Assembly (NCBI GenBank): GCA_964384035.1
Contig: CAYLIB010000001.1
Coordinates: 135,636-199,635 of the forward strand
Length of the DNA stretch: 64,000 nucleotides
Reading direction: 5' to 3'
Source of the DNA: an uncultured Candidatus Saccharibacteria bacterium
GTDB taxonomy: Bacteria > Patescibacteriota > Doudnabacteria > UBA920
The position numbers and the translations under genes were made by a program. The stretch's first letter is position 1. Each line of letters starts with the position of its first letter. Below, piece after piece: positions 11,436 through 37,111 of this stretch. The notes beneath the pieces are model-generated. The model did no database searches. It had not been told where the DNA came from and saw nothing but the letters and a program-made list of their open reading frames with translations.

Positions 11436-11439
11436 ATAA

Positions 11440-11468
11440 AAATCCCCTCTAAGAAGGGGATTTTTTTA
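11440..11468 (+). terminator. Rho-independent terminator after the giant PA14 gene
   Basis: Stem atcccct / aggggat followed by T7. Confidence 0.55.
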
Positions 11469-11510
11469 TCTGTAATTCGTCATGTTATAAAAAAAGAACG
11501 AAAATTTCGT

Positions 11511-12569
11511 TCATTTAAATTTTGGCAATAAGAACAATCTCTCGTTCATCCAACCAAGAAGGCCATCTTCTTCTGCTCTGTACCAGCCCTTAGACAAAGT
11601 GCTTATTTTGGACTGCACTCGAAGAGCAAAATTCTGCCACAACCGGTCCTCTGCGGTACTAAAGATACAAGCAAGCATAATCATGGTAAACGCATGTATA
11701 TGATTGAAATATCCATCATGCTGTCCAAATTGAAGTATCCGGTTAAGTGCTGCCAAACGAAAGTCTTCTGGTCTTAGTCCAATTACACCCAGTCCCTCCT
11801 CGGAAAGGAGAGTTAGTTCATCAATCAGCTCAGCTGTGGTCTCGATGTTGTCATCCCATCGCTTAAACTTATCATGGGCGCGATTTCCCAGTATTTCGTG
11901 TAGATAAATCACCGCAGTTACAGGTATGGTCGCACCCACACACCGGCTCTTAAAAGCAGGTATTCCGCCACACTCAGCCCAAGCATTAGCAATTACTTTA
12001 GGTTCAACATTAGCGAAACTTGCCGCATCCATAAAAGCAAGCAAATCGTCATATTTACGAGCTTTTGCTACCTTAGTTCGCAAATGCGAATACAGGCCTT
12101 CTTCGATAAGCGTGGTTGTTATTAGGCGCTTCGGATATTTAATTAGTTCGAAGACATCTCTAACTCGGGACCACTTCCGTATGAAGCTATGAGCACCAAT
12201 AGATTCATCCTTCAACTTTTCCACCAACCTAGCTAACAAATTTGCTCTTGTCTTTTGTGCAAAATCAGGATCAATTTCTCTTTGGACACCAAAAATTATA
12301 TTGTCCGAGTTAGTAACCGATCCATTTTTCTTGATATATTTTCTGACGACCCTAATTAGTTCATCGCTGGTAAGTCCAGGAAACAATTCTAGACCCCTCT
12401 TGACTACAAGATCGGCTTCATCCTGTTGGTCATTTTTAAAACTGTAAAGCTTGGCTCTTTGAAAATATTCCAAGAGCAAATCTACTGGATTATTGTCTGG
12501 CCTTTCATCCTTGAACCAGATATATTCAATAACCCCAAGGCGTTCTTCTAAGCTTTTAAAACTTGCCAT
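11511..12569 (-). CDS. Hypothetical protein
   Basis: 352-aa ORF at background GC. No recognisable motif. Confidence 0.45.
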   Translation of the reverse strand: MASFKSLEERLGVIEYIWFKDERPDNNPVDLLLEYFQRAKLYSFKNDQQDEADLVVKRGLELFPGLTSDELIRVVRKYIKKNGSVTNSDNIIFGVQREIDPDFAQKTRANLLARLVEKLKDESIGAHSFIRKWSRVRDVFELIKYPKRLITTTLIEEGLYSHLRTKVAKARKYDDLLAFMDAASFANVEPKVIANAWAECGGIPAFKSRCVGATIPVTAVIYLHEILGNRAHDKFKRWDDNIETTAELIDELTLLSEEGLGVIGLRPEDFRLAALNRILQFGQHDGYFNHIHAFTMIMLACIFSTAEDRLWQNFALRVQSKISTLSKGWYRAEEDGLLGWMNERLFLLPKFK

Positions 12570-12671
12570 ATTTCACCTCCGTTGTATTTGAGATAACCCT
12601 AATTTTTAGCACACAATTACTTAAAAGTAAATATACCTATTAATCCTAAATAGTTGTACGAAGCAAATAAA

Positions 12672-12700
12672 AAAAGGGGAATATATTTCAATTCCCCTTA
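12672..12700 (-). terminator. Hairpin at the low-GC / high-GC junction; probable terminator of the high-GC minus-strand operon
   Basis: Stem aggggaat / attcccct lies immediately beyond the stop of 12698..13102. An A7 run precedes it on the + strand, giving a T-run on the - strand. Confidence 0.4.
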
Positions 12701-13102
12701 GACCAGGTCGACCAGTAAAGTCCACTGCTCGAGGTCTTCTTCGAAATATAGTTCCCCTTGAGCAGTGCAGGGGAAGGTAAACCACACAACAGACGCCACG
12801 CAGTCGGCGCGTACATCCATTGGCCCTTCCGGTCTTCCGCAGCCGCAAGGACAAGTGAATTTTTTGGCGAAACTTCTCAAGTCTTGCCTGGGAAATATTT
12901 TGAAACCTACATTTCCCTCCTTCTTATATCTCCGCCCATCAATCATTGTCCACCCTCCATCATAAAGAGCGGACAACTCGCCAAGAGCCCCCACCTGGGA
13001 TGTAAATGTCTGCATCCTGACCCCACAACAATCTTCAAAATCGTATCCCGGGGGGCAGTATGTACGGCAGACGTGACATACGCGCCATAAATCATCTTCC
13101 AT
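12698..13102 (-). CDS. Small Cys-rich protein (high GC); last gene of island-1 operon
   Basis: 134 aa with CHVCRTYC, DCCG and CPCGCG clusters. Occupies the same position as the Cys-rich gene 58837..59514 in island 2. Confidence 0.45.
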   Translation of the reverse strand: MEDDLWRVCHVCRTYCPPGYDFEDCCGVRMQTFTSQVGALGELSALYDGGWTMIDGRRYKKEGNVGFKIFPRQDLRSFAKKFTCPCGCGRPEGPMDVRADCVASVVWFTFPCTAQGELYFEEDLEQWTLLVDLV

Positions 13103-13300
13103 AAAATTCCTCCATGTGGGGTTTTTGTTCGGAAAGCCATCTATTTGCTCGCATGAGCTAGAAAAGCTTCTTGTAAAGCACCTACAAAAGGAGAGAGTCT
13201 TTCATAGATACCCTACAAGAAGCTCACGATTGGATGTGCGGTCCAATCGTGAGATAATATTGTGCGAATTATTTTTTTGTTTTGCCCCGCTAGGAGGTTT

Positions 13301-15718
13301 TTATTTTTCAACGTGGCCAGTGCGGCCACAGTTGCTGCAAGTCACCGGCACTTGCGCGCCGGCAACCAAAGCTTTCCACTCTTTCTTCTTCATGGCTTCG
13401 ATTGAGTAGTTGCACGGAATGCAACGCACCCAACCGTCACCAAGCACTAAGAAGTCTTCACTAACCTCAACCACTTCTGGTTTAGGAGTTTCGACTTGTT
13501 CGGTAGTAGGGGAAAGAGTTTCTGCTTCCGTAGTCACCTCACCACGCTGCAGCCGCTCAATTTCAGCTAGGATTGTCGCCGGGTCAACCAACTTTGTTTG
13601 CGGGTTAACCGGCACCACAAGCCTGCCTTGTTTGTCGCGACCAATGGCGAAGTCCTTGTAAGTGCAGTACCAAGACTCGCCGACAACGGGCGGAACGTCC
13701 AGCCAGTTGCAACGCTGCGGGTCGCATGTCACGCGAACCACACCTTCGACTGTAGTGTATTCATCTTGCCTTGGGAGCTTAATGGATACACCACCTTCAA
13801 CGGTGACGGTTCCCGTAAGGCGACCCCTGAATTCTGGCCGTTGGTCTGCTTCGAACTTCACGAGCCAACGACCGTAGCGTTGGCTTTCTGCTTGCATAAG
13901 CTCGAGCTGTTTTTCGAGTCGCCGAATCTGCTGCCGATTTGTGAGTTCAGTTTCATCCGGTTCTTCGAAGAGATCGACAGTTTTGGTTTTCTCGAAATCA
14001 CTTTCCGTTACCACAACCTCGCGGTTGAGGGTAAAGGTGAAGCTGATTTCGTTGCGCCCATACCGCCGTGCCTCCAGCCGAACCAACCAGGTGTTGCCGA
14101 GTTCCGTTTCCATGACGGTCATGGTTTCTTTGTCTTCTGGAAGCTCGAGAAGGGCGTCCATGAGAGCATCGAAACCTTGCTCGTTTGAGTACAGCCAATG
14201 ATTGGAGCCGAAGCGAATGCAGTCCACTTCAAACCAACCATTGTCTTTGTAATCAGGAAGCAAGAACTCAGCCAGTTTATTCTCGAGCTCGCGCCAAGCA
14301 GCAATGCGCGAATCGATACGGTTAATGAAGTCTTGAGTTTCGACTGCTACCACAAGCGCCTGCTTATAGTCACCCTCCGAATCAACGAGCCGGTCAAGCT
14401 CATTCGAAAAGCGCTCAGCTTCCGCTTGTTCAGCTGTCGTAACCTCGGCATATTCGCCTCGGCCACGGCGGATGTCATAAAGATAGCTTTCAAGCTGTTG
14501 CTTACGCTCTTTGGCTTGCGTCTTCTCCGCCTTTTTAGTCTCAACTTCTACTTTCAAGGCTTCGATTCGGCTCGCCAACGCAGCAACCAAAGTTTCGACC
14601 TCGTCGTACTCAGCAGCCGCGAGCTTTTCGCGCGCCACTTTGAGTTCGGCCTCAAGAGCTTCGGTTTCGGTCTTAACCAAGTTGCGATCGTAATAGTCGA
14701 TCGCCGCATACACCTCTTTATAGGAGGTTTCCACAGCGACGACTTTGTCGCGAACCTCAATGAAGCGCCCACCAATTTCGCTTCGAGCCGTTTGTGCTTT
14801 GGCTTTGGCTGTTTCTACGCGGGACATAACGGTTTCAATCGTCAGTCCCTCAACAGTCGTAGCCTCATTCACAATATGCTCGAAGCGCGCCTGCAAACCT
14901 TGGCCGAGTTCAGTCAGCGACCACGAATACCAACTCGAGGGCCGAGTTTTAAACGGCTCCTCGTCGGGAATCGCGATTGCATCCTTGAGCAAACGGCGAA
15001 CGAGAGCTTGTAACGCCGTTTGGGTTTTGGATCTTGCCTCAGCTTCCGACTCCAGACCCAGTTTGAAATATGAGCCTGATGCATCATACTGCTGAAGCGC
15101 TATAAACGCCTCCACCGGCTCGCCGTTTGCATCCGTTGTGACCTCGACTTTCTTGAGGACGGACGACAAACGCTCGAGTGTCTTCTGAAGATCGCTCTGC
15201 CAGTCGGTTGCGTGTTGAGCACGCGCAGCTTCCCAGGCCTTCTCAATGCGCCGCGCTTCAATTTTGGCTCTCAGACCTTCAAGGTCCTTACCTTCAAACG
15301 TTTGACCTTCGTAGGTAACAACCAGTGTAACCTGGCGTCCTGAAGGGAGGGTGGGTATCTTTGTGAGAAACGCGAGTTGTTCAACTGTTGCTGCGGCTTT
15401 GACATAAAATGTGCCATACGAATGACTATATGTCACATTCAGTGTTTGTCCTTCAGCTTGAATCTCATCCGGGTTTTCAAGTCTAATCCGCGCTGCCTTT
15501 ACAGGGTCAGGAGCAGGGAAACTGAGAGCCTCAATATTAGGAATTCCTTCGGCAGACATTGCATCTCCGAGTAGTCCTTTGAGTAGCGTTTCCAACTCTT
15601 CCCGGGTCGGCAGGCGGAACACGTGTTCGCCTGCTCGGATGATAAGCGCTTTGACTTCGTTCATGATCGCCACATTCAGGGCGATAATCTGCATGAGTTT
15701 TTCTTTTTTTGTTGTCAT
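13301..15718 (-). CDS. 805-aa coiled-coil protein with a C-terminal zinc-ribbon EWKAL module (high GC)
   Basis: Long E/A/K/R/L-rich heptad-like stretches. C-terminus GWVRCIPCNYSIEAMKKKEWKALVAGAQVPVTCSNCGRTG matches the C-terminus of 56300..58714 (GWLRCSCGRAEMYWKKAEWKALEPESKHTVTCKGCRGVG). Confidence 0.6.
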   Translation of the reverse strand: MTTKKEKLMQIIALNVAIMNEVKALIIRAGEHVFRLPTREELETLLKGLLGDAMSAEGIPNIEALSFPAPDPVKAARIRLENPDEIQAEGQTLNVTYSHSYGTFYVKAAATVEQLAFLTKIPTLPSGRQVTLVVTYEGQTFEGKDLEGLRAKIEARRIEKAWEAARAQHATDWQSDLQKTLERLSSVLKKVEVTTDANGEPVEAFIALQQYDASGSYFKLGLESEAEARSKTQTALQALVRRLLKDAIAIPDEEPFKTRPSSWYSWSLTELGQGLQARFEHIVNEATTVEGLTIETVMSRVETAKAKAQTARSEIGGRFIEVRDKVVAVETSYKEVYAAIDYYDRNLVKTETEALEAELKVAREKLAAAEYDEVETLVAALASRIEALKVEVETKKAEKTQAKERKQQLESYLYDIRRGRGEYAEVTTAEQAEAERFSNELDRLVDSEGDYKQALVVAVETQDFINRIDSRIAAWRELENKLAEFLLPDYKDNGWFEVDCIRFGSNHWLYSNEQGFDALMDALLELPEDKETMTVMETELGNTWLVRLEARRYGRNEISFTFTLNREVVVTESDFEKTKTVDLFEEPDETELTNRQQIRRLEKQLELMQAESQRYGRWLVKFEADQRPEFRGRLTGTVTVEGGVSIKLPRQDEYTTVEGVVRVTCDPQRCNWLDVPPVVGESWYCTYKDFAIGRDKQGRLVVPVNPQTKLVDPATILAEIERLQRGEVTTEAETLSPTTEQVETPKPEVVEVSEDFLVLGDGWVRCIPCNYSIEAMKKKEWKALVAGAQVPVTCSNCGRTGHVEK

Positions 15719-15737
15719 CTTTTGCCTCCTAAAAAGG

Positions 15738-17807
15738 TTAGAGCTGGACGAGCATTTGCCGCACCAGCCAATTACGAAACTGGTTTGCGGCTTCCGCTTC
15801 GAATTCGATCGGGACCTCGGCGTCCGGTACGAGTTCTGTTGAAGAACTCAGGCGTTCACCAGCGAACCTTTGAGCAAACTCAATTCGTACACCATCAGCA
15901 TCCACAGCGTAAATTGACTGCGGTGTCTTTTGAGCGTACTTATCGAGCAGGTCGGAAGAAACTTCCGTTCCTTCAATGGTCGCACGGCGAATGCCTCGCT
16001 TGTCAGTCCAAAATCTAATCACTCCAAGAACGGCATCGTCTGCATCGGCGACGGAATGTTGAGCAGCCCACACAGCTCCAGCCGTGCTGTTCCGCTGGCT
16101 CTGTACAAAGTCGAAACTTTGCACGCGAGCGAGCAGTTCAACAAACCGGATGTGCAAGTTGGTATCACTTTCAATTTTGGCGAAACCTTCGGGATTAAGC
16201 AGGTCCAGACCAAGCTGGCGATAAATGCTCTTCATGGCGATTGCGACTTCCTTAATCGCTTTGCCAGAAAAACCAAATTCATCGCACCACTCAGCGAACG
16301 CTCCTTTTTCCACATCATTTCCGCGTCGTTTCACGTAGTCTCCATTGAAGGCATACTCCTTTTCATCGCCACGACGAATAAAACCAAACTGGTTCATCGC
16401 ACTAGCAATAATATTGTATGCAGTCAGATGGTCACTACCTTTAACGCGGAAGTTAGAAAGTTTTGCATCCTTGCGCATGAGCGAATACAGAGACTCGATG
16501 CTTGCGCTCACGATAGTGATATCCAGCAGTTGTTCATTACCACTGTCTTCCGCATGCACAAGCATTTCTGCCCACGCAGGGGAGACAGGCAGTCGTTCGA
16601 TGCGTTTACCGTAATGCGTAAGTTCCGGTGAATCTTTCTCGATAACACCACGTTCTCGAAAGCGGGCTACTTCGGCCAGATATTTGCCCTGGTCAATTTT
16701 CGTAATCAGGTCAAGTTCACTGGCTTCGACACCTAGCCTCGCGCAGACTAAGGCCACATGTTGCAAATCGCCCCCTAATTGAAACCGGGGAACTTCGGGT
16801 TTGAGGCTGTGAAAATCAATCGAGCGACTGGAGAGGATGTAAATTTCTCCGTTAACTGCTCGACCGTTCACACGACCACCCATTTGCAGCATGGTGTTGT
16901 TATCGAGATACGTTTTCTCCAGAACCTTCACACCGCTGTGAATATTTTCAGTGAACATCTGGTCCACGATCACAACGGTATCCAGTCCCGCGATGTTCAG
17001 ACTCGAAGCACCCGCGCTCGTCATAAAGATCATAAACGGCTTAGGCACTTCTCCCTTGAGGAATTGACGAAGTTTTTCGGCTTTCTCGCCACCGTGGTAG
17101 TAGTCGGTGTTCAGACCCGGGGTTGATGCGAACTGCTTGGACAAACGTTCAGCCATTTCGCGGGTTGGAACGAATACAGCCACGGCGCGTTTTTCGGCAA
17201 CAAACTTCTGAACGTTGCTGCGAAGAAAATCATCTACTTCTCCGTATTTAGCTTCCGCTTTGGCTTTACGAGTCGGGTCAAACGCCGAACATTCGATCAC
17301 GCTCTGTGCATTCAGATAATTCTTGTACACAGATGCGTCAATCGTAGCGCTCATCCACACCACGGTGTTACCTTCGCGTTTGGCCAGAGCCATGGACAGC
17401 TCCAAGTGTTCGCTCGTCTGGTGAATTTCGTCAATAACGATGAGATCGTTTTTTTTGATGACTCCATTCTTAAACCAGTGAAGCGCCACACCGGGCGTGA
17501 TCACGAGCACGTTGCAACTCCAAGTGTATGGGGTAGCTTCGTTTTCACGAGTCACGACGTCCACTTTGAGTTCGCCTATGATCTGTTTCGCCATTGCGCG
17601 GATGGCAACGGTTTTACCCGTCCCAGTGCCGGCAACAACACCAAACCCACCATTTGCCAAATTTGTCACTGCGGCGGCAATCTCTGTTCCTTTCTCGCGG
17701 ACTAGCAAAGTTCCAGGGATATTGCCGTTCTCCAGCACAACGGAAATATTGAGGCATGTACTCCGGGTAGGAGCAATGATAACAACTCTTCCAAATTCCT
17801 TACTCAT
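15738..17807 (-). CDS. Superfamily-2 DEAH/DExH-box helicase (high GC)
   Basis: Walker A AGTGTGKT; motif II DEIHQTSEH; motif III-like TSAGASS; motif VI QMGGRVNGRA. Start lies 19 bp from the stop of the 805-aa gene, so the two are probably co-transcribed. Confidence 0.7.
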   Translation of the reverse strand: MSKEFGRVVIIAPTRSTCLNISVVLENGNIPGTLLVREKGTEIAAAVTNLANGGFGVVAGTGTGKTVAIRAMAKQIIGELKVDVVTRENEATPYTWSCNVLVITPGVALHWFKNGVIKKNDLIVIDEIHQTSEHLELSMALAKREGNTVVWMSATIDASVYKNYLNAQSVIECSAFDPTRKAKAEAKYGEVDDFLRSNVQKFVAEKRAVAVFVPTREMAERLSKQFASTPGLNTDYYHGGEKAEKLRQFLKGEVPKPFMIFMTSAGASSLNIAGLDTVVIVDQMFTENIHSGVKVLEKTYLDNNTMLQMGGRVNGRAVNGEIYILSSRSIDFHSLKPEVPRFQLGGDLQHVALVCARLGVEASELDLITKIDQGKYLAEVARFRERGVIEKDSPELTHYGKRIERLPVSPAWAEMLVHAEDSGNEQLLDITIVSASIESLYSLMRKDAKLSNFRVKGSDHLTAYNIIASAMNQFGFIRRGDEKEYAFNGDYVKRRGNDVEKGAFAEWCDEFGFSGKAIKEVAIAMKSIYRQLGLDLLNPEGFAKIESDTNLHIRFVELLARVQSFDFVQSQRNSTAGAVWAAQHSVADADDAVLGVIRFWTDKRGIRRATIEGTEVSSDLLDKYAQKTPQSIYAVDADGVRIEFAQRFAGERLSSSTELVPDAEVPIEFEAEAANQFRNWLVRQMLVQL

Positions 17808-18041
17808 TCTTTCTCCTCAAGCTAGGGAACTTCTTCATCCACCCCAACCTGGCCAGCTAAGCTGACTTCCTGTTCCCCCGAGCCCGAGGTAAAGGCGTGC
17901 GAGTAGGATGTCTCGCATAACTTTTAGTTTTTCTGTTTCGGCTCTTTTGAGCCGTCATCAGTCGGAATACACATTCCGAGACAGAGAGGGTTTTTAGTGC
18001 GACCTAGGAAAACCCACAACCTGTTAATTTTCTGCTGAAAG

Positions 18042-18641
18042 CTAAATTCGCTCCCAGTCATACGCCTTTTTACAATCCGTGTTGCGGATTGCAAAAGACC
18101 CCTGCTTTTCGTCACCGGTAATGCGGAAAACAAGATCCCCGTCACCATCCCACCACCAGAAGACCTCCACTTGAACGCTTCCGAGCTGATAAGTGTAGCC
18201 ATGACTTTCACGCACGGCTTCCTCCACCAACTCATTACAAACCAGGTCCAAGTCTGTTATGAAACTTCGACGTTTATCGGCGTTCCAATCAGTGGCGTCT
18301 TTGCGAGGCTCGAAGTTGTCATAACAGCCATAGCCTTCACCAACAAAAGTAATCTGGCGAAGCCATTCCCCAATGAAATTCCAGTTGGGATGAGTGGTCG
18401 CCATGGCGATCACACCCTTCGCGATTTTCTCATTTTCGGTTTCTGGCAAATTGGATACCCTGCTTATTACCCGCTGCCACCACATTCCAAGCTGAAAGAG
18501 AGTCAAGGCGTTGAAGCCCATGGCTAGGAGGATCCAACCCTCCAGCCTGACACCCTTCAGGACAAAAATGAAAGTGGAAACGATCGCCGTGGCGATCGAG
18601 AAATTTCTAACAGCTATTCTGAAGTTCATAACTCTCCTCAA
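18042..18641 (-). CDS. Membrane protein with N-terminal transmembrane helices (high GC)
   Basis: Hydrophobic N-terminus AIATAIVSTFIFVL...WILLAMGFNALTLF. TTG start as given by the track. Conserved upstream leader motif shared with the helicase gene. Confidence 0.4.
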   Translation of the reverse strand: MRRVMNFRIAVRNFSIATAIVSTFIFVLKGVRLEGWILLAMGFNALTLFQLGMWWQRVISRVSNLPETENEKIAKGVIAMATTHPNWNFIGEWLRQITFVGEGYGCYDNFEPRKDATDWNADKRRSFITDLDLVCNELVEEAVRESHGYTYQLGSVQVEVFWWWDGDGDLVFRITGDEKQGSFAIRNTDCKKAYDWERI

Positions 18642-18841
18642 GCTCGGGGCACTACTTTGCCCTTCCCCAAACTTGGCCAGTTTTTTCAGGACCGACTTCT
18701 CGCTTGCTTATGTATTCGCCAGCGAGCATAAAGGCAAAGGCAACCTTGTTTTCCAATCTTGGCAAAGCACCAACGCGTTGTTGATGCCGCCAAGAAAGGA
18801 AAGGTGGTATGCGTTAGTGCGTTGCATACCACCCAGAATTA

Positions 18842-19057
18842 TCACAGGATATAGTCTTCATACGCGGTTTCTTTGCGTTCTTCTTCCAAGCCGCACGTTT
18901 TGCAACGCACGACCACGACAGAAGTCGCAATGTAATCCCACGTATAGTCACCATTATTTATTTTCTCAATCTCACACGAGTGCGAAATTAAAGAAAAGTT
19001 ATGGTCACATTCGTTATTGCAAAATAAGCTCATTTGTTCGTTCATGATATTCTCCAT
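18842..19057 (-). CDS. Small zinc-ribbon-like protein
   Basis: 71 aa with CNNECDH...SHSCE...RCKTCG cysteine pairs. Low confidence because it is short. Confidence 0.3.
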   Translation of the reverse strand: MENIMNEQMSLFCNNECDHNFSLISHSCEIEKINNGDYTWDYIATSVVVVRCKTCGLEEERKETAYEDYIL

Positions 19058-19359
19058 GTTTAAAGTTAAAGTTTTGTGGATGCAATTGATCCCTTTCTTT
19101 AACTCATATACATTTCAAATTCTTGAACGAAACATAGCTCTTTTAATAACGAACAGCTCTATCCAATTTTCAATCCACAAATTTCTTTGCAGACTGAAGA
19201 AAGGAGAGGTTACAAGTTTGAGTGCTAGTCAACTTGTAACCTCTGAATAATTGCGTCCCCAGACTTATCGCTAAGTGTGGGGAAAACTTCCGGATGCCTA
19301 GGATACCGGAAGTGGTATGAAATTGTATGAATGTATCATTTCTACCTAGGATGTTTAAG

Positions 19360-20325
19360 CTACGCCAAAGCGTTGAGTGCCTCGACAACTTTGTCGAGAT
19401 TCTCCGCGCCATGGACCGTAGCCTTGCCCGGGATCCCGCTGGCGGTGAGGCCGGCGGCTTTCAGGGTTTCGAGCAGGTCAGTTTTGCCAAGCTGCGGGTG
19501 CTGGCCGTTGCACCCAACCACGACGACTTCGCCTTCACCAGCCTTGGCGCCGGTGATTGCGACGAACGGCGCCCATTTGTAGCCAGCGAACATCGCGTTC
19601 GTCTGGTTAATCTCAACCCCAACGGGCTGCGAGATAACCAAAACGTTTCCGCGCAGTTCGGCAGCTGCAAGCGCCGCGTTCGTCGCCGCCTCAATGGCTT
19701 TGCCTTCGGCGAGCCGGGCTTCGAAAGCCGCGGTCGCTTCGGCATCGCCCAACAGGTGGCGAATGACGGTAACGCGAAACGCGTTGTCCGCAATCCGCGC
19801 CTTCACGGCGTTGTCAACGCCCGTAGCCAAAGCCTTCGCTTCGGGGCCAACTTCGAGCTGGCGGTTATCGGCCCAGTCGCCAGCCACAACCCACAGCTGA
19901 GGCATGGCCGCAAACTCGCCGCCCACGATGCTCGCGGCCGACAAATGTCCCTCACCCTTGCCAGGGGTGAAGAACAGTTCGGAGGCCAAACCAAGCTCAT
20001 CGCGAAGCTTGGCCCACAAGTCGGCACCGTGCTCATCGAAACATCCGACGAGCCGTGAGCCAATCGCACGAACGAGTTCTGTGGTCATGCCCGGCTCCCG
20101 GTTGTTCACCGGAAGACCGATCAAGACAACCTCGTCGTCCTCGGCCAACTCAGCCACCGCTTTTCGCGCCGGCGATCCCTCGCCCACCTGGAAGGCTTGC
20201 GTGAAGACCACGCGCGCCTCTCCAGCCGCGACTTGCGCCGCGGAAATGCCGCGTGCCAGGAGATACCCGGCAACGGCAAGCAAAGTGGAAGGTGAACCGG
20301 CAGCGATCACTAATAATTTTTTCAC
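19360..20325 (-). CDS. Hypothetical protein (high GC), possibly paralogous to 20625..21755
   Basis: 321 aa. Similar N-terminus (MKKLLVIAAG vs MKIKKIVVSR) and a shared FD(E/H)HG motif (CFDEHGAD vs NFDHHGGG). A hairpin follows at about 19213-19250. Confidence 0.45.
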   Translation of the reverse strand: MKKLLVIAAGSPSTLLAVAGYLLARGISAAQVAAGEARVVFTQAFQVGEGSPARKAVAELAEDDEVVLIGLPVNNREPGMTTELVRAIGSRLVGCFDEHGADLWAKLRDELGLASELFFTPGKGEGHLSAASIVGGEFAAMPQLWVVAGDWADNRQLEVGPEAKALATGVDNAVKARIADNAFRVTVIRHLLGDAEATAAFEARLAEGKAIEAATNAALAAAELRGNVLVISQPVGVEINQTNAMFAGYKWAPFVAITGAKAGEGEVVVVGCNGQHPQLGKTDLLETLKAAGLTASGIPGKATVHGAENLDKVVEALNALA

Positions 20326-20624
20326 GAAAGTTTCCTTTTCCCGCTCTGCCTTTTCTTTCCAGATGGAGCCACCTGGTTCGGCATTGCAGGGAAAGGTTTT
20401 ACTGTGTTCGTTTCATTCCTCACCAACCAAAGTTAGTGGGGGACACGACTCACAGCAAGTAGAGAAAGATTTTGGAAACATATCCGCAATCTCGGCTACA
20501 AAATGCAAAGCAATTTTCACACCTGCACCGCTTTAGCGCCTGCAGTCTCTACCCCCAGATGGCCCCTTCGCCTTGGGGAAACCCCTTAGAAAAGTGTTTC
20601 GCGTCCTCGGGACTTTTGCCCTAC

Positions 20625-21755
20625 TTACGCAACTCTTCTAAGTTGAAAAGGAACAACTGTCTTTCGTGAAGAATTATCCGCATGTGTGGTAACCCACACG
20701 CGGTTGCTTTGGCAGTAACTCTTAACTATCTGAATTACTGCTTCAAGGCTTAGCGACGAACTCTCGGTCCGGTTCGAGCCGATTATAGTCATATGGTTAG
20801 GTCCACCCCAACCTTTGACCGAATCGGCGGATTCGAGTTGCTTACAAAGTTCATCCAGTCTTTCCCCACCGGTTATGGTAAACTTCGCAAAACCGTTTTG
20901 AACGAACTCTGGTTTAACCCCGAGTTGTTCAAAGAGGGGAACAACGTTGCAGTATTTCACCACTCTATTTTCAAGAGGGTGATTTACTTTCGCGTCGAAG
21001 ACCGGATCGAACGAAATGGTAATGTGCGGAGCCCGCCCTTTACTATTTCGCAACCCTTCCATCAAGCCCGGTGTGCCAAACCAAGAAGAATTAATGGCAG
21101 CTATTACAAAGCCATTAACTTCAAACCATTTCACTTGCTTCGCAACTTCCGAAGCGTAAGATTCATGGTTTTTCTTGGCCGTAAGCCAGTTTTCAAACTC
21201 AAGATAGTTTTCAATCAACACGTTCATCGACCGGTAAGGGTCAATCTCGTGCCGAACAATACTATCGAAGAGTCGAAACCCAGCTCTCAGTTGCTCAATT
21301 GGATCCTCGTTACAAAGGAGGAGTCCAGCAAGCAGCCAGGCAAATGTAGGCCCGTCGCTACGCTCATGGCGACTTTTCCTGCCTGCGTCAAACTCGCCAA
21401 CATATTCAACTATTGGCCAAAGTAGCTTCCGCCACCCCGCACCAAAAGTTTCCATATGCTGGTAAGCTTGAAGGCAAGCCGGGCGCATTTCTGTGCCCCC
21501 GCCATGATGGTCAAAATTCATAAGCCACACCTGTCCGCTACCCCCACACTCTATGCAGAGCACTTGGGAGTCGCTCAAGTCTTGGCCGGAAGCCGATCCT
21601 CTCACTACTTCAATTGGCAAACTAAAGACTTGCGTCCCAGCTACCAAAAAAGCAGTAAGCATAGTATCTGGATCGACTCTCGAAACAACGATTTTTTTAA
21701 TCTTCATCGATGCTCCTAAAGCTTGATCCAGACGGATCGATTTCAATTTACTCAA
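20625..21755 (-). CDS. Hypothetical protein with DHH-like motifs; first gene of island-1 operon
   Basis: 376 aa. VDPDTMLTAFL resembles DHH motif I (DxD) and NFDHHGGG resembles motif III. Weak and by eye only. Confidence 0.4.
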   Translation of the reverse strand: MSKLKSIRLDQALGASMKIKKIVVSRVDPDTMLTAFLVAGTQVFSLPIEVVRGSASGQDLSDSQVLCIECGGSGQVWLMNFDHHGGGTEMRPACLQAYQHMETFGAGWRKLLWPIVEYVGEFDAGRKSRHERSDGPTFAWLLAGLLLCNEDPIEQLRAGFRLFDSIVRHEIDPYRSMNVLIENYLEFENWLTAKKNHESYASEVAKQVKWFEVNGFVIAAINSSWFGTPGLMEGLRNSKGRAPHITISFDPVFDAKVNHPLENRVVKYCNVVPLFEQLGVKPEFVQNGFAKFTITGGERLDELCKQLESADSVKGWGGPNHMTIIGSNRTESSSLSLEAVIQIVKSYCQSNRVWVTTHADNSSRKTVVPFQLRRVA

Positions 21756-22748
21756 ACGCGTTGTTTGAGCTTAGGCTGTTATCCAGCCAAAAAAATACCC
21801 ATTCTTATGGGTGCTTGTTTGTTTGGATAATATATTTCCACGCTCGAGACTAAACCGAGCTTCATTTAATTCTTATGTTGTATTTTGTATTCAGTATTTG
21901 CACCACCGGGTTACGCATTCGTCCACGCAAAACAAATACAACGTAACTACTTTCACCCGCTGCAAGCTTCACTCTCGTGAACCCGCCGCTTGGATTACTA
22001 ATAACTACCCCCACACTCATTGCCGAATATGGGATAAATTTACAAAATCACTATTTTTCAAAGTTCATCCCGCACATACACTTGTGTGAAGAAGTGCTAG
22101 CAAGGAATGACCCCCTCACCTGTCTTTTTCCTTCTCTCTCGAGAGCAAAAACAGACGAAGGGTCGCACTCATTGCTAAGCTTTTCCTAGGTAAACATTTT
22201 CCCTTCCATAAATTCGGAAGAAATAGCGTCATACTTTCGGGCTCTAGCAGAACCGGTGGTTCGCCTAGGGCGAACAGGGGATAGGTAAGTGTGGTTAACA
22301 GTTACTCGCTCCTTTTCCCAGATTCCTGTTGCCTGACGGCAACTGTACGCACCTGTCGTACTAATTAAGTTGTAAATATTTATGGGATCTCTCTCTAATA
22401 TGAGGTTCTATAGAGGGATCTGTTGTAAAAGCCTTAGGCCACCATGTATGTATATGTGGATGGGGATTTACAACATATCTCTTTCTATAAAACAAAAGCG
22501 GTGTATATATTCCTCTCTATATAGAGAGAAATACGTACATCGCTTTTCTTGTGCCCTATATGTCACGGTGGGCTACCGCTCTCTCTAATGGACTATTTGA
22601 CTATCAGTAATTTTTATTTAAATATCAGTATACAATAAATTCAGAAAAATGTCAATATTAATGTGTCATAAAATAGTAAAATTTAATTACATCCAATAAA
22701 ATATATATAAAAATCTAAATAAAATTAAATAAATTTGTCATAAAAATC

Positions 22749-22777
22749 TTGACAAAAATAATCAAACCTGCTAATAT
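22749..22777 (+). promoter_or_regulatory. Sigma70-type promoter of TrmB-like gene 22786
   Basis: TTGACA (22749-54), 17-nt spacer, TAATAT (22772-77). ATG at 22786 with no obvious RBS, so the mRNA is possibly leaderless. Confidence 0.5.
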
Positions 22778-22785
22778 GTAACCAT

Positions 22786-23658
22786 ATGGAACCCCAAAAC
22801 TCACAAATAAATAACCAGGATCAGCCCATTCCACACTCAGGTCCAAAACAAGAAGAGGGGCAAAATAGAACAAAAAAAGGTGTAGCTTCTAAAGCAAACT
22901 ACACGCAAGTTCTTATGCAAGCAGGTTTAAATGGTTCTCAGGCCCTTATTTACGAAACCTTACTAAAAACTGGCCCCTTAAAAGCCAGTAGTTTAGCCAC
23001 AAGAACCCCATTCAAACGTCAACTTACTTATAAGCTCTTAGAAGAACTAGTAGAAATAGGTCTGGTAGTTAAGCAGGAGCAAAAAGGGAAAGTAGCCATT
23101 TTCGAACCAGCGCATCCCCTAAAGTTAAAAGACTTTATAGAAAAACAACAGGAAAAAGCCAAAGCTGCCGAATTAGCCGTAAGTGGCATGATGGAAAAAC
23201 TAACCCTAGACTACAATTCAGTATTTGGTCGTCCCGGTGTTAAGTTCTACGAAGGAAAAGAGGGGATTATAAAAATCTACGAAACCTTATTAGAAAACGG
23301 AAAAAATATAGACAGTATAGAAGACAAAGGCGAAATGGCTAGTTTTATACCAGAATATTCCAGGCAATACCCAAAGCTAAGAGTAAAAAGAAATATTTTC
23401 AATAGAGTTATCGCTCCGTCAGATAATCCTATAAACGAATCCAGCAAAGTGCTCATGAGAGAAACCAGATCCATCCCCACAGAATCATTCCCGTTTCGCA
23501 TGGACATAAAAATTGCTGGTCAGCTAGTTAGTCTAATCACATTTCATAAAGATAACCCCGTAGGTATTCTTATAGACAACCCAGAAATAGCCGACAACTT
23601 TAAAATCCTATTCGATTTAATTTGGAGATCATCAGAAAAAAATAAACCCGCTTTATAA
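22786..23658 (+). CDS. TrmB-family winged-HTH transcriptional regulator paralogue (copy 1)
   Basis: N-terminal TrmB-like HTH: GLNGSQALIYETLLKTGPLKASSLATRTPFKRQLTYKLLEELVEIGLV. C-terminal domain is closest to copy 52486..53250 (shared PFRMDIKI...ILIDN.EIADN..ILF). Confidence 0.7.
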   Translation: MEPQNSQINNQDQPIPHSGPKQEEGQNRTKKGVASKANYTQVLMQAGLNGSQALIYETLLKTGPLKASSLATRTPFKRQLTYKLLEELVEIGLVVKQEQKGKVAIFEPAHPLKLKDFIEKQQEKAKAAELAVSGMMEKLTLDYNSVFGRPGVKFYEGKEGIIKIYETLLENGKNIDSIEDKGEMASFIPEYSRQYPKLRVKRNIFNRVIAPSDNPINESSKVLMRETRSIPTESFPFRMDIKIAGQLVSLITFHKDNPVGILIDNPEIADNFKILFDLIWRSSEKNKPAL

Positions 23659-23675
23659 GCGAGTTTATTTTATAA
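23640..23675. terminator. Bidirectional terminator hairpin between convergent genes 22786 and 23670
   Basis: Stem aaataaacccgctt / aagcgagtttattt with flanking T/A runs. Confidence 0.5.
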
Positions 23676-26600: not shown

Positions 26601-27263
26601 AATAAGATTTTGAATTGACTCCACAGAGCGCATAGAGTTTCCGTAGCCCAGGCCTCTAATATTTGCCGCGACTGCGACTAACTGGTCTAGGCTATCTAAC
26701 TGTTCTTCTATCGGGGCATGTGCAATAAACTTCTTAATGATTTCAGTATCACCATCATCCAGTCTTTCAATCTCCATAGTAAAAGATCTACCAAAGATAC
26801 CTTGCAATTCCTGGTTGCGACTAGCTCTAAGTGATAAAAAGAAAATATCCGAAGGGTGGAGACTTGAGACAATAGAGTTCGAGTCACTAAATAATGATTC
26901 ATGTATCGAACTAAAAGTAGTCTGAACCTTTGATCTATCAGATTCACGCCTTGAGTAATCCTCCATCGTATCTATTAAATCTTCACAAAAGAGTTTTATG
27001 AGTTTAGTGATATCAGTATTTACACCACCTATTTTTCTAAAATAGTCTACAATAACATCTCTGGGTATATTGATATTTTGGTTCTCTGACGAATTGACCA
27101 CCTTATCAAAAAGTCCATTAGCAATAATATGAATTTCCTTTCGTATCGAGGGGTCATCTAGATCTCTCATTTTTTTATCATCTCGAGCTTCTCCAGTAAG
27201 ATTCTGGTTGTTTTCAGGATTAGCAATTTCACTCAGAAATTTTGTGTCAAAATTTTCATGCAT
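23670..27263 (-). CDS. Giant partner protein (1197 aa), helical with a C-terminal Rossmann/SAM-methyltransferase-like domain; paralogue of 49449..52463
   Basis: Shared blocks with the 1004-aa protein: RFGVD...LLEIGPGSG (vs LLELGPGSG), AFPPNVMLGDIS (vs AFPEGVIIGDFS), VLIIFGPPISGED (vs FLIVTGPGFEGKE). Arranged tail-to-tail with TrmB copy 1. Confidence 0.65.
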   Translation of the reverse strand: MHENFDTKFLSEIANPENNQNLTGEARDDKKMRDLDDPSIRKEIHIIANGLFDKVVNSSENQNINIPRDVIVDYFRKIGGVNTDITKLIKLFCEDLIDTMEDYSRRESDRSKVQTTFSSIHESLFSDSNSIVSSLHPSDIFFLSLRASRNQELQGIFGRSFTMEIERLDDGDTEIIKKFIAHAPIEEQLDSLDQLVAVAANIRGLGYGNSMRSVESIQNLITEIQINARTELLETKSRGALKIISQEINDPRFGIVTYESQRSRARLSASVTEAERLASWNLSRQLEPDVPLYKGDTFLKVASDAVAITDHSRLPKYITHIDTSRLPKTEGLSKREINTVLQLNSENFSHPRELFVHSEYIENRLGHKAVEIGLVERSGHSLWREISPALGERIQKLLTSQEVLVKFNQSLRDEDERLNKEMGDTNEGATDAFLQKFEATMPSILSENREPGIQRLSILWQEYSRYKEKNSLEECFNIAVDCIGILNAKRFLDLDENINSSKAHALTKAGRRLVLSYNAVLAAFDRNARVYKNKLTDLQKSIEVDTKRTTAVRTYISEWGYIKQHKNELVEDIHEFAKKLESHIDYTPIDAHFVPYENLQRDPDYNPYGLPQRNLPLLFKHLHSPDITESINSRYGISISELPLRTQLHLLRFLADEGDKTTADKLKYTLSNHPEAKEDILRSFLVASEDTEYGHTILELADLCTSEEDTKLLFGSYRTYTETIQVRIANALTRLHELYPNISLSEESLLQSFLRRGKYYLMDCKRRLKESGTELSRTEIIQKLADDLQKEVPSDAVLRSDFSHIAELLNKKGVVDLRDFSREQELLLESMGTSDSKSILLEVLQQEGKLKIVPEFHWSVDRDLRSYEERFGVDLNGLLEEFKSKRNPELPKPILLEIGPGSGQSMKDRFGTGLSRGYMEFGLADNVYFSLQPVLERIVDFEKLEERTGTKMDTSERLRITDYLYRILSLKTGTTEMGVRYDTDFYSGINKNINNLKAIWPTLTEKLDGLPAVPGGPSVHISANEVEYTKKIRPRGLEIALSALQENPLEFLKANENFYEHLDAFPPNVMLGDISEISKIQKNQISIELAVRSTVYKRGAEYIHFLDDLYDRLEVGGIALDDSFRDNDGYRYRYEELHTFKGHHPDAEVLIIFGPPISGEDPIQDRPVPLSMIITKQGSSQTLWNKYKKKGCHIEVL

Positions 27264-31356: not shown

Positions 31357-31531
31357 AAGAACCTCCTATTAAGTTTTAGTTTATGCGAACGGGTTGTTTG
31401 TTTTTGAAATATAATTATGTCATAATTAGCTAGAATTATTAACAATATTAGATAGTAATTTTAAATAAAAGCTCAAATATAGGATATTTTTAATACTAAT
31501 TAGCATAAATTTGTCAGAAATAATAACAAAA

Positions 31532-36929: not shown

Positions 36930-37111
36930 AATTTTGTGGATAATTTTCGACAAATAATAATACAAAATAATAGCCTAAATAAGGCTATTTTTAATTAATT
37001 ATAGCAATATTTATTAAATTTGTCAATATTTCCCCTCAACTCATGTATAGTTACCCATCAAGTTGATAATTCGATCAGCTTGAAATTCCACCCACTTCCT
37101 TAGGAGGTTCC

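What the first reader, a model, noticed from the sequence alone, without database searches (positions are those of the whole stretch)
12650..21800. 9-kb high-GC island forming one minus-strand operon: DEAH helicase, coiled-coil zinc-ribbon protein, Cys-rich protein, membrane protein
GC rises from about 38% to about 57% exactly at the hairpin at 12672–12700. It stays high through seven co-directional genes on the minus strand, in order 376 aa, 321 aa, 71 aa, a 199-aa transmembrane protein, a 689-aa SF2 DEAH helicase, an 805-aa coiled-coil zinc-ribbon protein, and a 134-aa Cys-rich protein.

The high-GC block is followed by a roughly 1-kb AT-rich divergent region, which contains the promoter of TrmB copy 1 (22786). 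The block is clearly compositionally foreign to the backbone.

I could not match the gene set to any known system. The combination of helicase, long coiled-coil zinc-ribbon protein and small Cys or zinc proteins is reminiscent of anti-phage or nucleic-acid-surveillance modules. That function is inference only.
Basis: partly seen in the sequence, partly recalled or inferred. Interest (0 to 1): 0.75.

Follow-up and report, generated by a model that had tools for sequence, protein, structure and literature searches.

The report
Split HrpA-like helicase cluster, GC-rich
The GC-rich block is real, but its core is a two-gene (split) version of an RNA helicase family that is widespread in candidate-phyla-radiation bacteria and resembles the ribosome-rescue helicase HrpA, joined here by two DHH-type phosphoesterase genes; oddly, the helicase gene stays GC-rich in every related genome examined.

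Summary
Seven co-directional minus-strand ORFs (12698-21755) form a block of 50.3% GC, not 57%, against 39-41% flanks. It ends at a terminator hairpin (12674-12699).

The interpretation as a foreign anti-phage island forming one operon is not supported.
- The 689-aa DEAH/RHA helicase and the 805-aa protein are two halves of one ancestral protein. They are fused in other Patescibacteria and in Gemmatimonadota.
- The only significant structural match of the 805-aa model is full-length E. coli HrpA bound to collided ribosomes.
- In other genomes the helicase sits among housekeeping genes.
- The 376-aa protein is a DHH/DHHA1 phosphoesterase. The 321-aa protein looks like a degenerate relative.
- These two genes and the 199-aa protein recur with the helicase in only a few Patescibacteria lineages.
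- PADLOC gave only weak Cas3 matches to the helicase core. No integrase, flanking repeats, phage relatives or close plasmid relatives were found.

The cluster lies downstream of one of at least five TrmB-plus-conserved-promoter cassettes. It contains a candidate type III hammerhead ribozyme (17930-17987).

Unexplained: in 12 of 13 Patescibacteria-type contexts the helicase gene clearly exceeds its neighbours in synonymous-site GC; in the thirteenth the excess is marginal.

The parts
12674..12699 (-). Terminator-like hairpin followed by a T run, directly after the stop of the 134-aa ORF. It marks the 3' end of the cluster and the GC step.
   Evidence: AAGGGGAATTGAAATATATTCCCCTT + TTTTTATTTG; GC profile.
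12698..13102 (-). p134: Cys-rich small protein (CxxC, CC and CPCGC motifs). It is specific to this lineage and its function is unknown.
   Evidence: Translation. No hit in Pfam, PADLOC, NCBIfam or PHROGs. Homologues only in the identical contigs L001/L002.
13301..15718 (-). p805: the detached C-terminal region of the helicase. Residues about 1-486 form a helical part, two alpha+beta domains and long helices. A poorly modelled middle follows, then a C-terminal zinc ribbon (about 750-805).
   Evidence: Homologous to the C-terminal extension of fused 1159-1363-aa helicases and of 870-aa Gemmatimonadota helicases. AF2 model. Foldseek PDB top hit is E. coli HrpA on the disome, 9gft_B, E 1.2e-6. The zinc ribbon is shared with the 853-aa protein at 56153-58714.
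15738..17807 (-). hel689: DEAH/RHA-type helicase core with RecA1, RecA2, winged helix and ratchet domains. Motifs GTGTGKT, DEIH, SAT and QMGGRVNGR are present.
   Evidence: Pfam DEAD and Helicase_C. PDB alignments to Prp16, HrpA and Prp43 through residue about 467. NCBIfam HrpB/HrpA hits are far below the cut-offs. Invariant motif residues. More than 4270 relatives.
17930..17987 (-). Candidate type III hammerhead ribozyme on the coding strand, between the 199-aa gene and the helicase.
   Evidence: Rfam RF00008: 38.2 bits (gathering 48.5), E 1.8e-5 over 10.4 kb, full model length, all core nucleotides present. The MFE fold is the three-stem hammerhead, z -4.06. Not found in other loci.
18042..18641 (-). 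p199: small protein with an N-terminal hydrophobic helix and a conserved C-terminal domain (FWWWDGDGD...CKKAYDW). It recurs next to the helicase in Uhrbacteria-type loci.
   Evidence: Homologues L005 12305-13060 and L095 2176-2895. Hydrophobicity scan and sequences.
18842..19057 (-). p71: small Cys-containing (CX3C...CX2C) protein in the AT-richer dip of the block. Function unknown.
   Evidence: Only weak PHROG hits.
19360..20325 (-). p321: GC-richest gene (0.62). It belongs to a small family with a 'DEH' motif in place of DHH and with the motif I/II aspartates lost. Probably a degenerate DHH/DHHA1-like partner.
   Evidence: 54 representatives in 1.84 billion. Motifs. Weak Pfam DHH/DHHA1 hits in 2 of 37 and 1 of 37 members. 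In L088 the same position is held by a second p376-family gene. Found near the helicase in L005, L095 and L010.
20625..21755 (-). p376: DHH/DHHA1-family phosphoesterase with an intact motif set. Gene callers and homologues start at the ATG at 21707, giving 360 aa.
   Evidence: Motifs VDxDT, NFDHHG and GWGGPxH are invariant. AF2 model pLDDT 73.5. Foldseek PDB hits: PAP phosphatase 8a8k, RecJ 6tvv/7ykv, NrnA 3w5w, DhhP 9r7o, Cdc45. Only 6 clusters in 5.8 billion proteins.
21790..22620 (-). About 830-nt leader between the promoter and the p376 gene, with no long ORF (none over 52 aa on this strand). It ends in a hairpin plus U run (21812-21797). Possibly a structured leader or ncRNA; unresolved.
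   Evidence: No ORF over 52 aa on this strand. MFE -254.8 against shuffles -205.9 +/- 8.5, but only z -1.3 against real windows of the same GC. No Rfam hit.
22627..22655 (-). Strong sigma-70-type promoter (TTGACA-17-TATACT) facing the cluster. It is conserved in five TrmB cassettes of the window.
   Evidence: 11 of 12 matches; alignment A7; 48-nt match to 53.4 kb.
22786..23658 (+). TrmB-like winged-helix regulator, transcribed divergently from the cluster. It is one of seven paralogues in the window.
   Evidence: Pfam TrmB. Paralogue list. The same divergent TrmB/p376 arrangement occurs in L088.

Best explanation
The block is a TrmB-controlled gene cluster. Its core is a split HrpA-like DEAH/RHA RNA helicase.

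The core: hel689 supplies the ATP-driven motor, which is inferred to translocate 3'->5' on RNA by analogy with characterised DEAH/RHA helicases. p805 supplies the detached C-terminal region. Its fold order (helical part, two alpha+beta domains, helical 'hook') resembles the region of E. coli HrpA that docks on collided ribosomes. The two proteins are inferred to reassemble non-covalently. The complex would then act on RNA-protein complexes, most likely stalled or collided ribosomes or structured mRNA.

The accessories: in this lineage the helicase is joined by a module of two DHH/DHHA1-type proteins. p376 has intact catalytic motifs and is expected to hydrolyse short RNA, pAp or a nucleotide signal. 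p321 has a degenerate active site and is probably a non-catalytic partner. A small conserved-domain protein (p199) and two small Cys-rich proteins complete the set.

Expression: transcription is inferred to start at a strong promoter shared with sister TrmB cassettes. A hammerhead-like ribozyme may cut the transcript upstream of the helicase.

Composition: the GC excess belongs to the helicase gene family, and to some extent its partners, across Patescibacteria. It is not the mark of a single recent import into this genome.

Shown here: homology, gene fusion, fold matches, gene contexts and composition. Inferred: ribosome binding, substrates, physical association of the two halves, and regulation.
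For: Fusion and split:
- hel689 and p805 are one ORF in L008, L009, L010, L011, L014 and L097, and adjacent genes in L005, L007, L013, L095, L096 and L098.
- The first 160 or so positions of the p805 family also match the C-terminal extension of Gemmatimonadota helicases.

Helicase class:
- DEAH/RHA motifs are intact and the alignment to Prp16/HrpA/Prp43 runs through the winged-helix and ratchet domains.

C-terminal region:
- Foldseek on the p805 model gives one significant PDB hit, full-length HrpA on the disome (9gft_B, E 1.2e-6, prob 1.00). The next hit is an HrpA C-terminal fragment.
- The published order of the HrpA C-terminal region is HB2, alpha+beta-1, alpha+beta-2, Hook, and this region is required for ribosome splitting (PMC11419001). 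The secondary-structure order of the model is the same.

Housekeeping contexts in relatives:
- infB-rpsP-KH-trmD, dnaG-rpoD, dnaA-dnaN with PNPase and rpsO, recQ.
- PFK and IspH in Gemmatimonadota.

DHH assignments: for p376; for p321.

Recurrence of helicase + p199 + p321 (+ p376): the window, L005/L095 and L010.

Promoter and TrmB design.

GC3 or fourfold-site excess of the helicase:
- Clear in 12 of 13 Patescibacteria-type contexts and marginal in L011.
- The Patescibacteria-type helicases form a clade separate from Gemmatimonadota.
Against: - The helicase scores far below the NCBIfam HrpA and HrpB cut-offs. It has no room for HrpA's N-terminal domain.
- The C-terminal half of p805 is poorly modelled and has no relatives.
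- The p376 family is very rare (6 clusters) and is absent from most helicase contexts. The functional link between the helicase and the DHH proteins therefore rests on three lineages.
- A distant p376 relative is attached to a type III-D CRISPR operon, which points towards signalling or defence rather than RNA turnover.
- The hammerhead scores below Rfam's gathering threshold and has no covariation support.
- The GC excess has no demonstrated cause.
Confidence: 0.5

Rival explanations
1. Anti-phage or nucleic-acid-surveillance system. The helicase senses foreign RNA or stalled translation. The DHH phosphoesterase acts as a nuclease effector or as a signal-degrading 'off switch' like NrN. The small membrane-anchored protein acts as the effector. 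TrmB is the regulator.
For: - The accessory genes are rare and patchy.
- A helicase plus a phosphoesterase and zinc-ribbon proteins is a defence-like gene set.
- A 29%-identical p376 relative lies 10 nt upstream of cas10/cas7 genes of a type III-D system.
- In type III systems a DHH (NrN) or DEDD phosphodiesterase accompanies the CorA membrane effector (PMC10600005).
- A DEDD-exonuclease-like protein sits beside the helicase in L005, and its homologue is the first cargo gene of another TrmB cassette in the window.
- The region is an array of TrmB cassettes with variable GC-rich cargo.
Against: - No PADLOC model matches any partner. The helicase gives only weak Cas3-core hits.
- No signal synthase (Cas10, CD-NTase or similar) was detected in the cluster.
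- The helicase family is embedded in housekeeping neighbourhoods in most Patescibacteria and in Gemmatimonadota.
- No relatives were found in 2.9 million viral contigs. The plasmid collection gave only one distant partial match, 26% identity over 49% of the query.
- The CRISPR association is a single contig.
Confidence: 0.2
2. A recently imported genomic island from a high-GC donor, such as a host bacterium of an episymbiont, acquired as one 9-kb piece and not yet ameliorated.
For: - GC step of 10 points with sharp edges. GC3 reaches 0.70 in p321.
- The tetranucleotide signature of the block correlates less with the backbone (r 0.42-0.63) than backbone blocks correlate with each other (0.63-0.82). 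It correlates at 0.46 with a Gemmatimonadota locus.
Against: - No integrase, tRNA or flanking direct repeats.
- The closest relatives of every conserved gene, where a source name is available, are other Patescibacteria (50-65% identity for the helicase). Gemmatimonadota form a separate clade at about 42%.
- The same GC excess follows the helicase in 12 other contexts at different chromosomal positions, so it is not specific to this genome.
- The parts of the block occur separately elsewhere (L088 has the DHH pair and a weak 805-aa analogue but no helicase; L096-L099 have the helicase without the DHH pair).
Confidence: 0.12
3. An ordinary co-directional run of unrelated genes whose GC excess reflects amino-acid composition or chance, with no functional link between them.
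For: - Long spacers and internal hairpins argue against a tight operon.
- Most helicase contexts lack the DHH genes.
Against: - The excess is at third and fourfold-degenerate positions, not only at GC1/GC2.
- Helicase, p199-like and p321-like (and p376-like) genes recur together in different orders in three lineages.
- Fusion proves the link between the helicase and p805.
Confidence: 0.1

Closest known systems
E. coli HrpA (DEAH/RHA helicase that splits collided ribosomes; structures 9gft, 9ggr, 6zwx)
   Same: - DEAH/RHA core with winged-helix and ratchet domains.
- A long C-terminal region whose modelled fold gives HrpA as the only significant PDB match. The domain order is the same: helical part, two alpha+beta domains, helical hook.
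- Chromosomal, with translation and RNA genes as neighbours in relatives.
   Different: - No N-terminal APHB-type domain.
- NCBIfam HrpA score is 32 bits against a cut-off of 1400.
- No sequence-level match of p805 to the HrpA C-terminal region.
- Here the protein is split into two genes, and p805 carries about 320 extra residues and a zinc ribbon.
- Ribosome binding is untested.
HrpB-like bacterial DExH NTPases
   Same: HrpB is the best NCBIfam match of the helicase core (TIGR01970, E 1.3e-16). Both have a C-terminal extension that modulates RNA binding (PMC8325345).
   Different: The score is 60 bits against a cut-off of 546. The C-terminal extension is of a different family and size.
DHH/DHHA1 phosphoesterases: NrnA nanoRNase, pAp phosphatase, DhhP/GdpP, archaeal RecJ/GAN
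   Same: p376 has the DxD, DHH and GGGH-like motifs and a two-domain fold that matches these proteins.
   Different: - No Pfam or NCBIfam model reaches significance.
- The family has only 6 clusters.
- The substrate is unknown.
- It is paired with a degenerate paralogue-like protein (p321).
NrN, the DHH phosphodiesterase of CorA-type type III CRISPR systems (degrades SAM-AMP)
   Same: Both are DHH-family enzymes encoded beside a small membrane-associated protein. A distant p376 relative lies beside cas10 of a type III-D locus.
   Different: - No cas10, CorA or CRISPR components were detected in the cluster.
- PADLOC finds nothing for p376 or its CRISPR-linked relative.
- Whether p376 is related to NrN more closely than to other DHH proteins was not tested.
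Cdc45 / RecJ-like proteins as helicase partners (CMG, archaeal GAN)
   Same: A DHH-fold protein with a degenerate active site (p321) is encoded with a helicase. Cdc45 appears among the fold matches of p376.
   Different: The helicase class is different (DEAH/RHA, not MCM). No evidence of interaction. This is an analogy only.
Type III hammerhead ribozyme (Rfam RF00008)
   Same: Full-length match with the CUGAUGA and GAAA cores, a GUC cleavage triplet and three stems.
   Different: - Below the gathering score (38.2 against 48.5).
- One extra nucleotide before stem II.
- Short tetraloops, with no loop-loop contact shown.
- No homologous copies for covariation.

Membership tests
DEAH/RHA (DExH) SF2 helicases | Helicase motifs I (GxGKT), II (DExH), III (SAT) and VI (QRxGRxGR-like) | tested here: met
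   GTGTGKT, DEIH, SAT and QMGGRVNGR are invariant across 18 family members. Pfam DEAD and Helicase_C hits.
DEAH/RHA (DExH) SF2 helicases | Winged-helix and ratchet (HA2-type) domains after RecA2 | tested here: met
   phmmer alignments to Prp16 (8cnt) and HrpA (8po6) run to query residue about 467, through these domains. No Pfam HA2 hit.
DEAH/RHA (DExH) SF2 helicases | OB-fold domain after the ratchet | not tested
   Residues 470-689 of the helicase were not modelled.
HrpA (ribosome-collision rescue helicase) | Passes the curated HrpA equivalog models | tested here: not met
   NF008348 31.9 bits against 1400; TIGR01967 22.4 against 722.75.
HrpA (ribosome-collision rescue helicase) | N-terminal APHB/S1-like domain before RecA1 | tested here: not met
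   Query residue 41 aligns to HrpA residue 108. The helicase starts about 40 residues before motif I.
HrpA (ribosome-collision rescue helicase) | C-terminal region (DUF3418-like) with HB2, two alpha+beta domains and a helical Hook | tested here: inconclusive
   The Foldseek top hit of the p805 model is HrpA 9gft_B, E 1.2e-6, with a matching secondary-structure order. However, TM-scores are 0.13 or lower and there is no sequence or profile match.
HrpA (ribosome-collision rescue helicase) | Binds collided ribosomes and splits them with ATP | not testable with these tools
   Biochemical property (PMC11419001).
HrpB-like NTPases | Passes the curated HrpB equivalog model | tested here: not met
   TIGR01970 60.2 bits against a cut-off of 546.
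DHH/DHHA1 phosphoesterases (p376) | Motifs I (DxD), III (DHH) and IV (D), and the DHHA1 GGGH-type motif | tested here: met
   D28 (with Asp at position 30 in most members), D82-H83-H84, D134 and G315-W-G-G-P319 are invariant, and His follows at position 321 in most members, in the 6-member alignment.
DHH/DHHA1 phosphoesterases (p376) | Two-domain DHH + DHHA1 fold | tested here: met
   Foldseek PDB: 8a8k, 6tvv, 7ykv, 3w5w, 7bih and 9r7o, prob 0.99-1.00. Model pLDDT 73.5.
DHH/DHHA1 phosphoesterases (p376) | Reaches the Pfam DHH/DHHA1 gathering scores | tested here: not met
   No Pfam family at E <= 0.01.
DHH/DHHA1 phosphoesterases (p321) | Catalytic DxD / D / DHH motifs | tested here: not met
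   The equivalent positions read GSPS / VNN / DEH. Pfam DHH is hit weakly by only 2 of 37 family members. The profile-profile match to the p376 family is not significant.
NrN-type CRISPR type III accessory phosphodiesterase | Encoded in a type III CRISPR-Cas locus next to cas10, with CorA | tested here: not met
   No Cas protein was detected in the cluster. Only the distant relative in L091 is next to cas10.
Known anti-phage defence systems (PADLOC-DB v2) | A match of the component proteins to a system's models | tested here: not met
   Only weak Cas3 helicase-core hits for hel689. Nothing for the six partners.
Integrated mobile element / genomic island | Integrase or recombinase, flanking direct repeats, tRNA or other attachment site | tested here: not met
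   No tRNA in the window. No flanking repeat of 25 nt or more at the borders. No recombinase among the ORFs scanned. No viral relatives and only one distant partial plasmid match.
Hammerhead ribozyme type III (RF00008) | Conserved catalytic core and three-stem junction | tested here: met
   CUGAUGA, GAAA, GUC and stems I-III are present. The MFE structure is the hammerhead.
Hammerhead ribozyme type III (RF00008) | Rfam gathering score | tested here: not met
   38.2 bits against 48.5. The hit was lost by the filters in the whole-window search.
Hammerhead ribozyme type III (RF00008) | Self-cleavage | not testable with these tools
   Needs in vitro transcription of about 17900-18010 (-).

The most novel reading that the evidence does not exclude
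The most novel reading not excluded has three linked parts.

1. The window is an array of TrmB-gated cassettes. In it, a split HrpA-like ribosome-collision helicase has been recruited, together with an active/inactive DHH phosphoesterase pair and a membrane-anchored small protein, into a translation-surveillance immunity or stress system of Patescibacteria. A hammerhead ribozyme would process its transcript.

2. The helicase gene family is kept at about 50% GC in genomes of 30-47% GC. This could be because it is continually exchanged between Patescibacteria lineages.

3. Alternatively, its codon usage may be selected to be decoupled from the host's, so that it can still be translated when the usual A/U-ending codons stall.
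Probability: 0.15. Interest if true: 0.8.

Novelty: new variant of a known kind. Interest (0 to 1): 0.5.

Why it matters
If the helicase/p805 pair is a functional HrpA equivalent, it would give Patescibacteria and Gemmatimonadota a candidate ribosome-collision rescue factor. It would also be a natural split version, useful for separating the motor from the ribosome-docking part.

The accessory DHH pair is a very rare enzyme family with one link to type III-D CRISPR. It is a candidate for a new nucleotide or nanoRNA phosphodiesterase.

The most unusual result is compositional. One chromosomal gene family keeps a synonymous-site GC excess in every Patescibacteria-type context examined, next to core genes. 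That makes it a concrete test case for whether gene-specific transfer, biased gene conversion or selection on codons can hold a gene away from its genome's composition.

None of this is shown experimentally, and the core of the finding belongs to a known helicase class.

Tried and rejected
- Pfam, NCBIfam, PADLOC and PHROGs on all seven proteins gave hits for the helicase core only, apart from two marginal PHROG matches for p71.
- The word-index homology search with p805 found only itself. The relation to fused helicases came from the ORFs of related loci instead.
- Sequence searches of the PDB with p376, p321, the p321 profile and the p805 profile gave nothing meaningful.
- The profile-profile comparison of the p321 and p376 families was not significant.
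- A global MAFFT alignment of p805 with full-length fused helicases misaligned it to the helicase part and was discarded. A trimmed alignment was used for the model.
- The hammerhead search in other loci, by a descriptor and by Rfam, found none. The whole-window Rfam E-value search did not recover even the window's copy, so the hit depends on lax filters.
- The leader 21790-22620 looked strongly structured against shuffles (z -5.7). It was unremarkable against real windows of the same GC (z -1.3), so it is not claimed as an ncRNA.
- Flanking repeats or att sites: none convincing.
- Viral contigs gave no helicase relative. Plasmids gave only one distant partial match, 26% identity.
- The metagenome scan with the p321 family gave only three loci.

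Full report
**1. Check of the observation**

The window is a low-GC bacterial sequence of about 0.40 GC. It encodes PolA, a PilB-type ATPase, VanW, a PA14 giant protein and RecQ. The closest named relatives of its genes are Patescibacteria.

The block 12674-21755 has 0.503 GC. The left flank has 0.394 and the right flank 0.412. No other 9.1-kb block exceeds 0.471.

The figure of 57% is too high. Only the 321-aa gene reaches 0.62-0.63, and GC dips to 0.36 around the 71-aa gene.

The excess is at synonymous sites. GC3 is 0.46-0.70 in the island genes against 0.42 +/- 0.08 in the others (p = 0.002).

The left edge coincides with a terminator-like hairpin at 12699-12674. Of the '1-kb AT-rich region', only 22450-22900 is AT-rich.

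Identical copies of the block, in the same context where the contigs extend far enough, occur in four metagenome contigs.

**2. The helicase and the 805-aa protein are one protein split in two**

The 689-aa protein is a DEAH/RHA helicase with motifs GTGTGKT, DEIH, SAT and QMGGRVNGR. It aligns to Prp16, HrpA and Prp43 through the winged-helix and ratchet domains. It falls far below the curated HrpA and HrpB thresholds.

It has thousands of relatives. The closest, at 50-65% identity, include named Patescibacteria (Ryan-, Uhr-, Falkow-, Saccharibacteria). A large group at about 42% is in Gemmatimonadota.

Many relatives are 850-1360 aa long. In L008, L009, L010, L011, L014 and L097 the extra C-terminal part is homologous to residues about 1-480 of the 805-aa protein. 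In L005, L007, L013, L095, L096 and L098 that part is a separate gene downstream. The first 160 or so positions also match the C-terminal extension of Gemmatimonadota helicases.

An AlphaFold model of the 805-aa protein is confident for residues 1-486. This part consists of a helical segment, two alpha+beta units and long helices.

The HrpA C-terminal region is described as HB2, alpha+beta-1, alpha+beta-2 and a helical Hook. It is needed to bind and split collided ribosomes (PMC11419001).

The resemblance is structural only. No sequence or profile match to HrpA, or to any convincing Pfam family, was found.

The last 50 or so residues of p805 are a zinc ribbon. It is shared with another large protein of the window, 56153-58714.

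**3. Context of the helicase elsewhere**

In Gemmatimonadota the neighbours are housekeeping genes such as PFK, IspH, a DEAD-box helicase and a thioesterase.

In other Patescibacteria-type loci the helicase lies:
- after infB-rpsP-KH-trmD;
- after dnaG-rpoD;
- between dnaA-dnaN and PNPase-rpsO;
- next to recQ.

No relative was found in 2.9 million viral contigs. The plasmid collection gave only one distant partial match. An NJ tree separates the Patescibacteria-type clade from the Gemmatimonadota clade.

This is the pattern of a chromosomal, probably housekeeping, RNA helicase. It is not the pattern of a defence gene.

**4. The accessory genes**

The 376-aa protein probably starts at 21707, giving 360 aa as in the gene calls. 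It has invariant DxD, DHH and GWGGPxH motifs. Its model matches pAp phosphatase, RecJ, NrnA, DhhP and Cdc45 structures. It is therefore a DHH/DHHA1 phosphoesterase. The family is very rare, with 6 clusters.

The 321-aa protein belongs to a small family of 54 representatives. The corresponding positions read GSPS / VNN / DEH. A few members touch Pfam DHH/DHHA1 weakly.

In L088 the gene at the same position is a second p376-family member. I read p321 as a degenerate DHH-like partner. The profile comparison did not prove this.

The conserved part of the 199-aa protein is its C-terminal domain. It recurs beside the helicase in L005 and L095.

Helicase, p199-like, p805-like and p321-like genes (plus p376-like in L005) occur together, in a different order, in Uhrbacteria-type loci (L005/L012, L094/L095). 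A p321-like gene lies upstream of the fused helicase in a Saccharibacteria contig, L010.

Other arrangements also occur:
- The DHH pair occurs with TrmB, without the helicase, in L088, and alone in L093.
- Most helicase loci lack the DHH genes.
- A 29%-identical p376 relative lies 10 nt upstream of a type III-D cas10/cas7 operon in a high-GC contig.

In type III systems, DHH (NrN) or DEDD phosphodiesterases accompany the CorA effector and degrade SAM-AMP (PMC10600005).

No PADLOC model matches any partner.

**5. Regulation and RNA features**

The divergent TrmB-like gene (22786-23658) is one of seven paralogues in the window.

Five of their divergent intergenic regions share two elements:
- a strong promoter (TATTGACATTT...TATnGnATACT) facing the cargo genes;
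- a TTTGTCA...TGACAAA-type palindrome next to TrmB.

The same TrmB/p376 arrangement exists in L088. Cargo next to other copies is also GC3-rich and includes proteins with the p805-type zinc ribbon.

About 830 nt with no long ORF lie between the promoter and p376. They end in a hairpin plus a U run. The structure signal is ambiguous.

A full-length match to the type III hammerhead lies between the 199-aa gene and the helicase, on the coding strand. It scores 38.2 bits (gathering 48.5), with E 1.8e-5 over 10.4 kb. The core is intact and the MFE fold is the hammerhead. It is confined to this lineage.

**6. The GC excess belongs to the gene family**

In 13 Patescibacteria-type contexts the helicase, and usually its p805-like partner, has 0.42-0.56 GC. 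The contexts are the window, L005, L007, L008, L009, L010, L011, L013, L014, L015 and L096-L099.

GC3 exceeds that of flanking genes by about 8 to 40 points. Examples:
- 0.59 against 0.18-0.32 next to dnaA/dnaN;
- 0.57 against 0.25-0.37 next to infB/trmD.

Fourfold-site GC agrees in 8 of 9 loci tested. In L011 the excess is only +0.01.

A single recent import into this genome cannot explain this, and the cause is unknown. Two candidates are repeated exchange within Patescibacteria and selection on codon usage.

**7. Verdict**

The composition step and the gene list are real. The block is best read as a TrmB-cassette cluster built around a split HrpA-like DEAH/RHA helicase with lineage-restricted DHH accessories (confidence about 0.5).

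A defence or signalling role for the accessory module is possible (about 0.2) but is not supported by any model match. A one-piece import from a high-GC donor is unlikely (about 0.12).

It is a new variant of a known kind. Interest is moderate and is driven by four things:
- the split helicase;
- the rare DHH pair;
- the ribozyme candidate;
- the family-wide GC anomaly.

Noticed in passing
window 17930-17987 (-): Full-length match to the type III hammerhead ribozyme on the coding strand, between the 199-aa gene and the helicase. It scores 38.2 bits, below the gathering score of 48.5. The catalytic core is intact. It is found only in this lineage.
   Followed up: partly
window 21790-22620 (-): About 830 nt with no long ORF (none over 52 aa on this strand) between the strong promoter and the first gene, ending in a hairpin plus U run (21812-21797). 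It is strongly structured against shuffles (z -5.7) but ordinary against real windows of equal GC (z -1.3). No Rfam match.
   Followed up: partly
window 22786-23658, 31511-32275, 36201-36965, 42224-43033, 47510-48274, 52486-53250, 60754-61572: Seven TrmB-like paralogues. Five have a divergent intergenic region with the same strong promoter and a TTTGTCA...TGACAAA-type palindrome (alignment A7). The region therefore looks like an array of TrmB-gated cassettes.
   Followed up: partly
window 53739-59514 and 61900-63432: Two further GC3-rich cargo blocks next to TrmB copies. The 853-aa protein (56153-58714) shares the C-terminal zinc ribbon of the 805-aa protein (E 6e-8). The 510-aa protein (61900-63432) resembles the 812-aa zinc-ribbon protein of L088 (E 2e-16).
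   Followed up: partly
window 23670-27263 (-), 40218-42227 (+), 49449-52463 (+): Three large paralogous proteins (1197, 669 and 1004 aa) with no family match. The first two lie directly beside a TrmB paralogue and the third within about 1.2 kb of one.
   Followed up: no
window 43545-44222 (+); L005 8325-9149: The first cargo gene of another TrmB cassette is homologous (E 1e-23) to a DEDD-exonuclease-like protein encoded just upstream of the helicase in the Uhrbacteria locus.
   Followed up: no
L091 1179-7889: A 270-aa relative of the 376-aa DHH protein lies 10 nt upstream of a type III-D CRISPR effector operon (Cas10, a Cas7-Cas5 fusion and Cas7) in a 64% GC contig.
   Followed up: partly
L005, L007-L015, L096-L099 (helicase at about 10001-12100 in most of these loci): In every Patescibacteria-type locus the helicase gene has about 0.42-0.56 GC. 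Its GC3 is 8-40 points above that of neighbouring core genes, whatever the genome GC (0.30-0.47). In L011 the fourfold-site excess is only +0.01.
   Followed up: yes
L088 8000-20100: A related organism has the same TrmB / DHH-pair head, followed by a different set of GC-rich unknown genes and an 812-aa zinc-ribbon protein. No helicase lies within 10 kb.
   Followed up: partly
L007 15186-15257: A tRNA gene lies directly downstream of the helicase / 480-aa / 134-aa genes in this locus. Whether it marks an insertion site was not examined.
   Followed up: no
window 19205-19244: Perfect 14-nt inverted repeat with a 12-nt loop in the AT-rich spacer between the 321-aa and 71-aa genes. It could be a terminator or an operator.
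   Followed up: no
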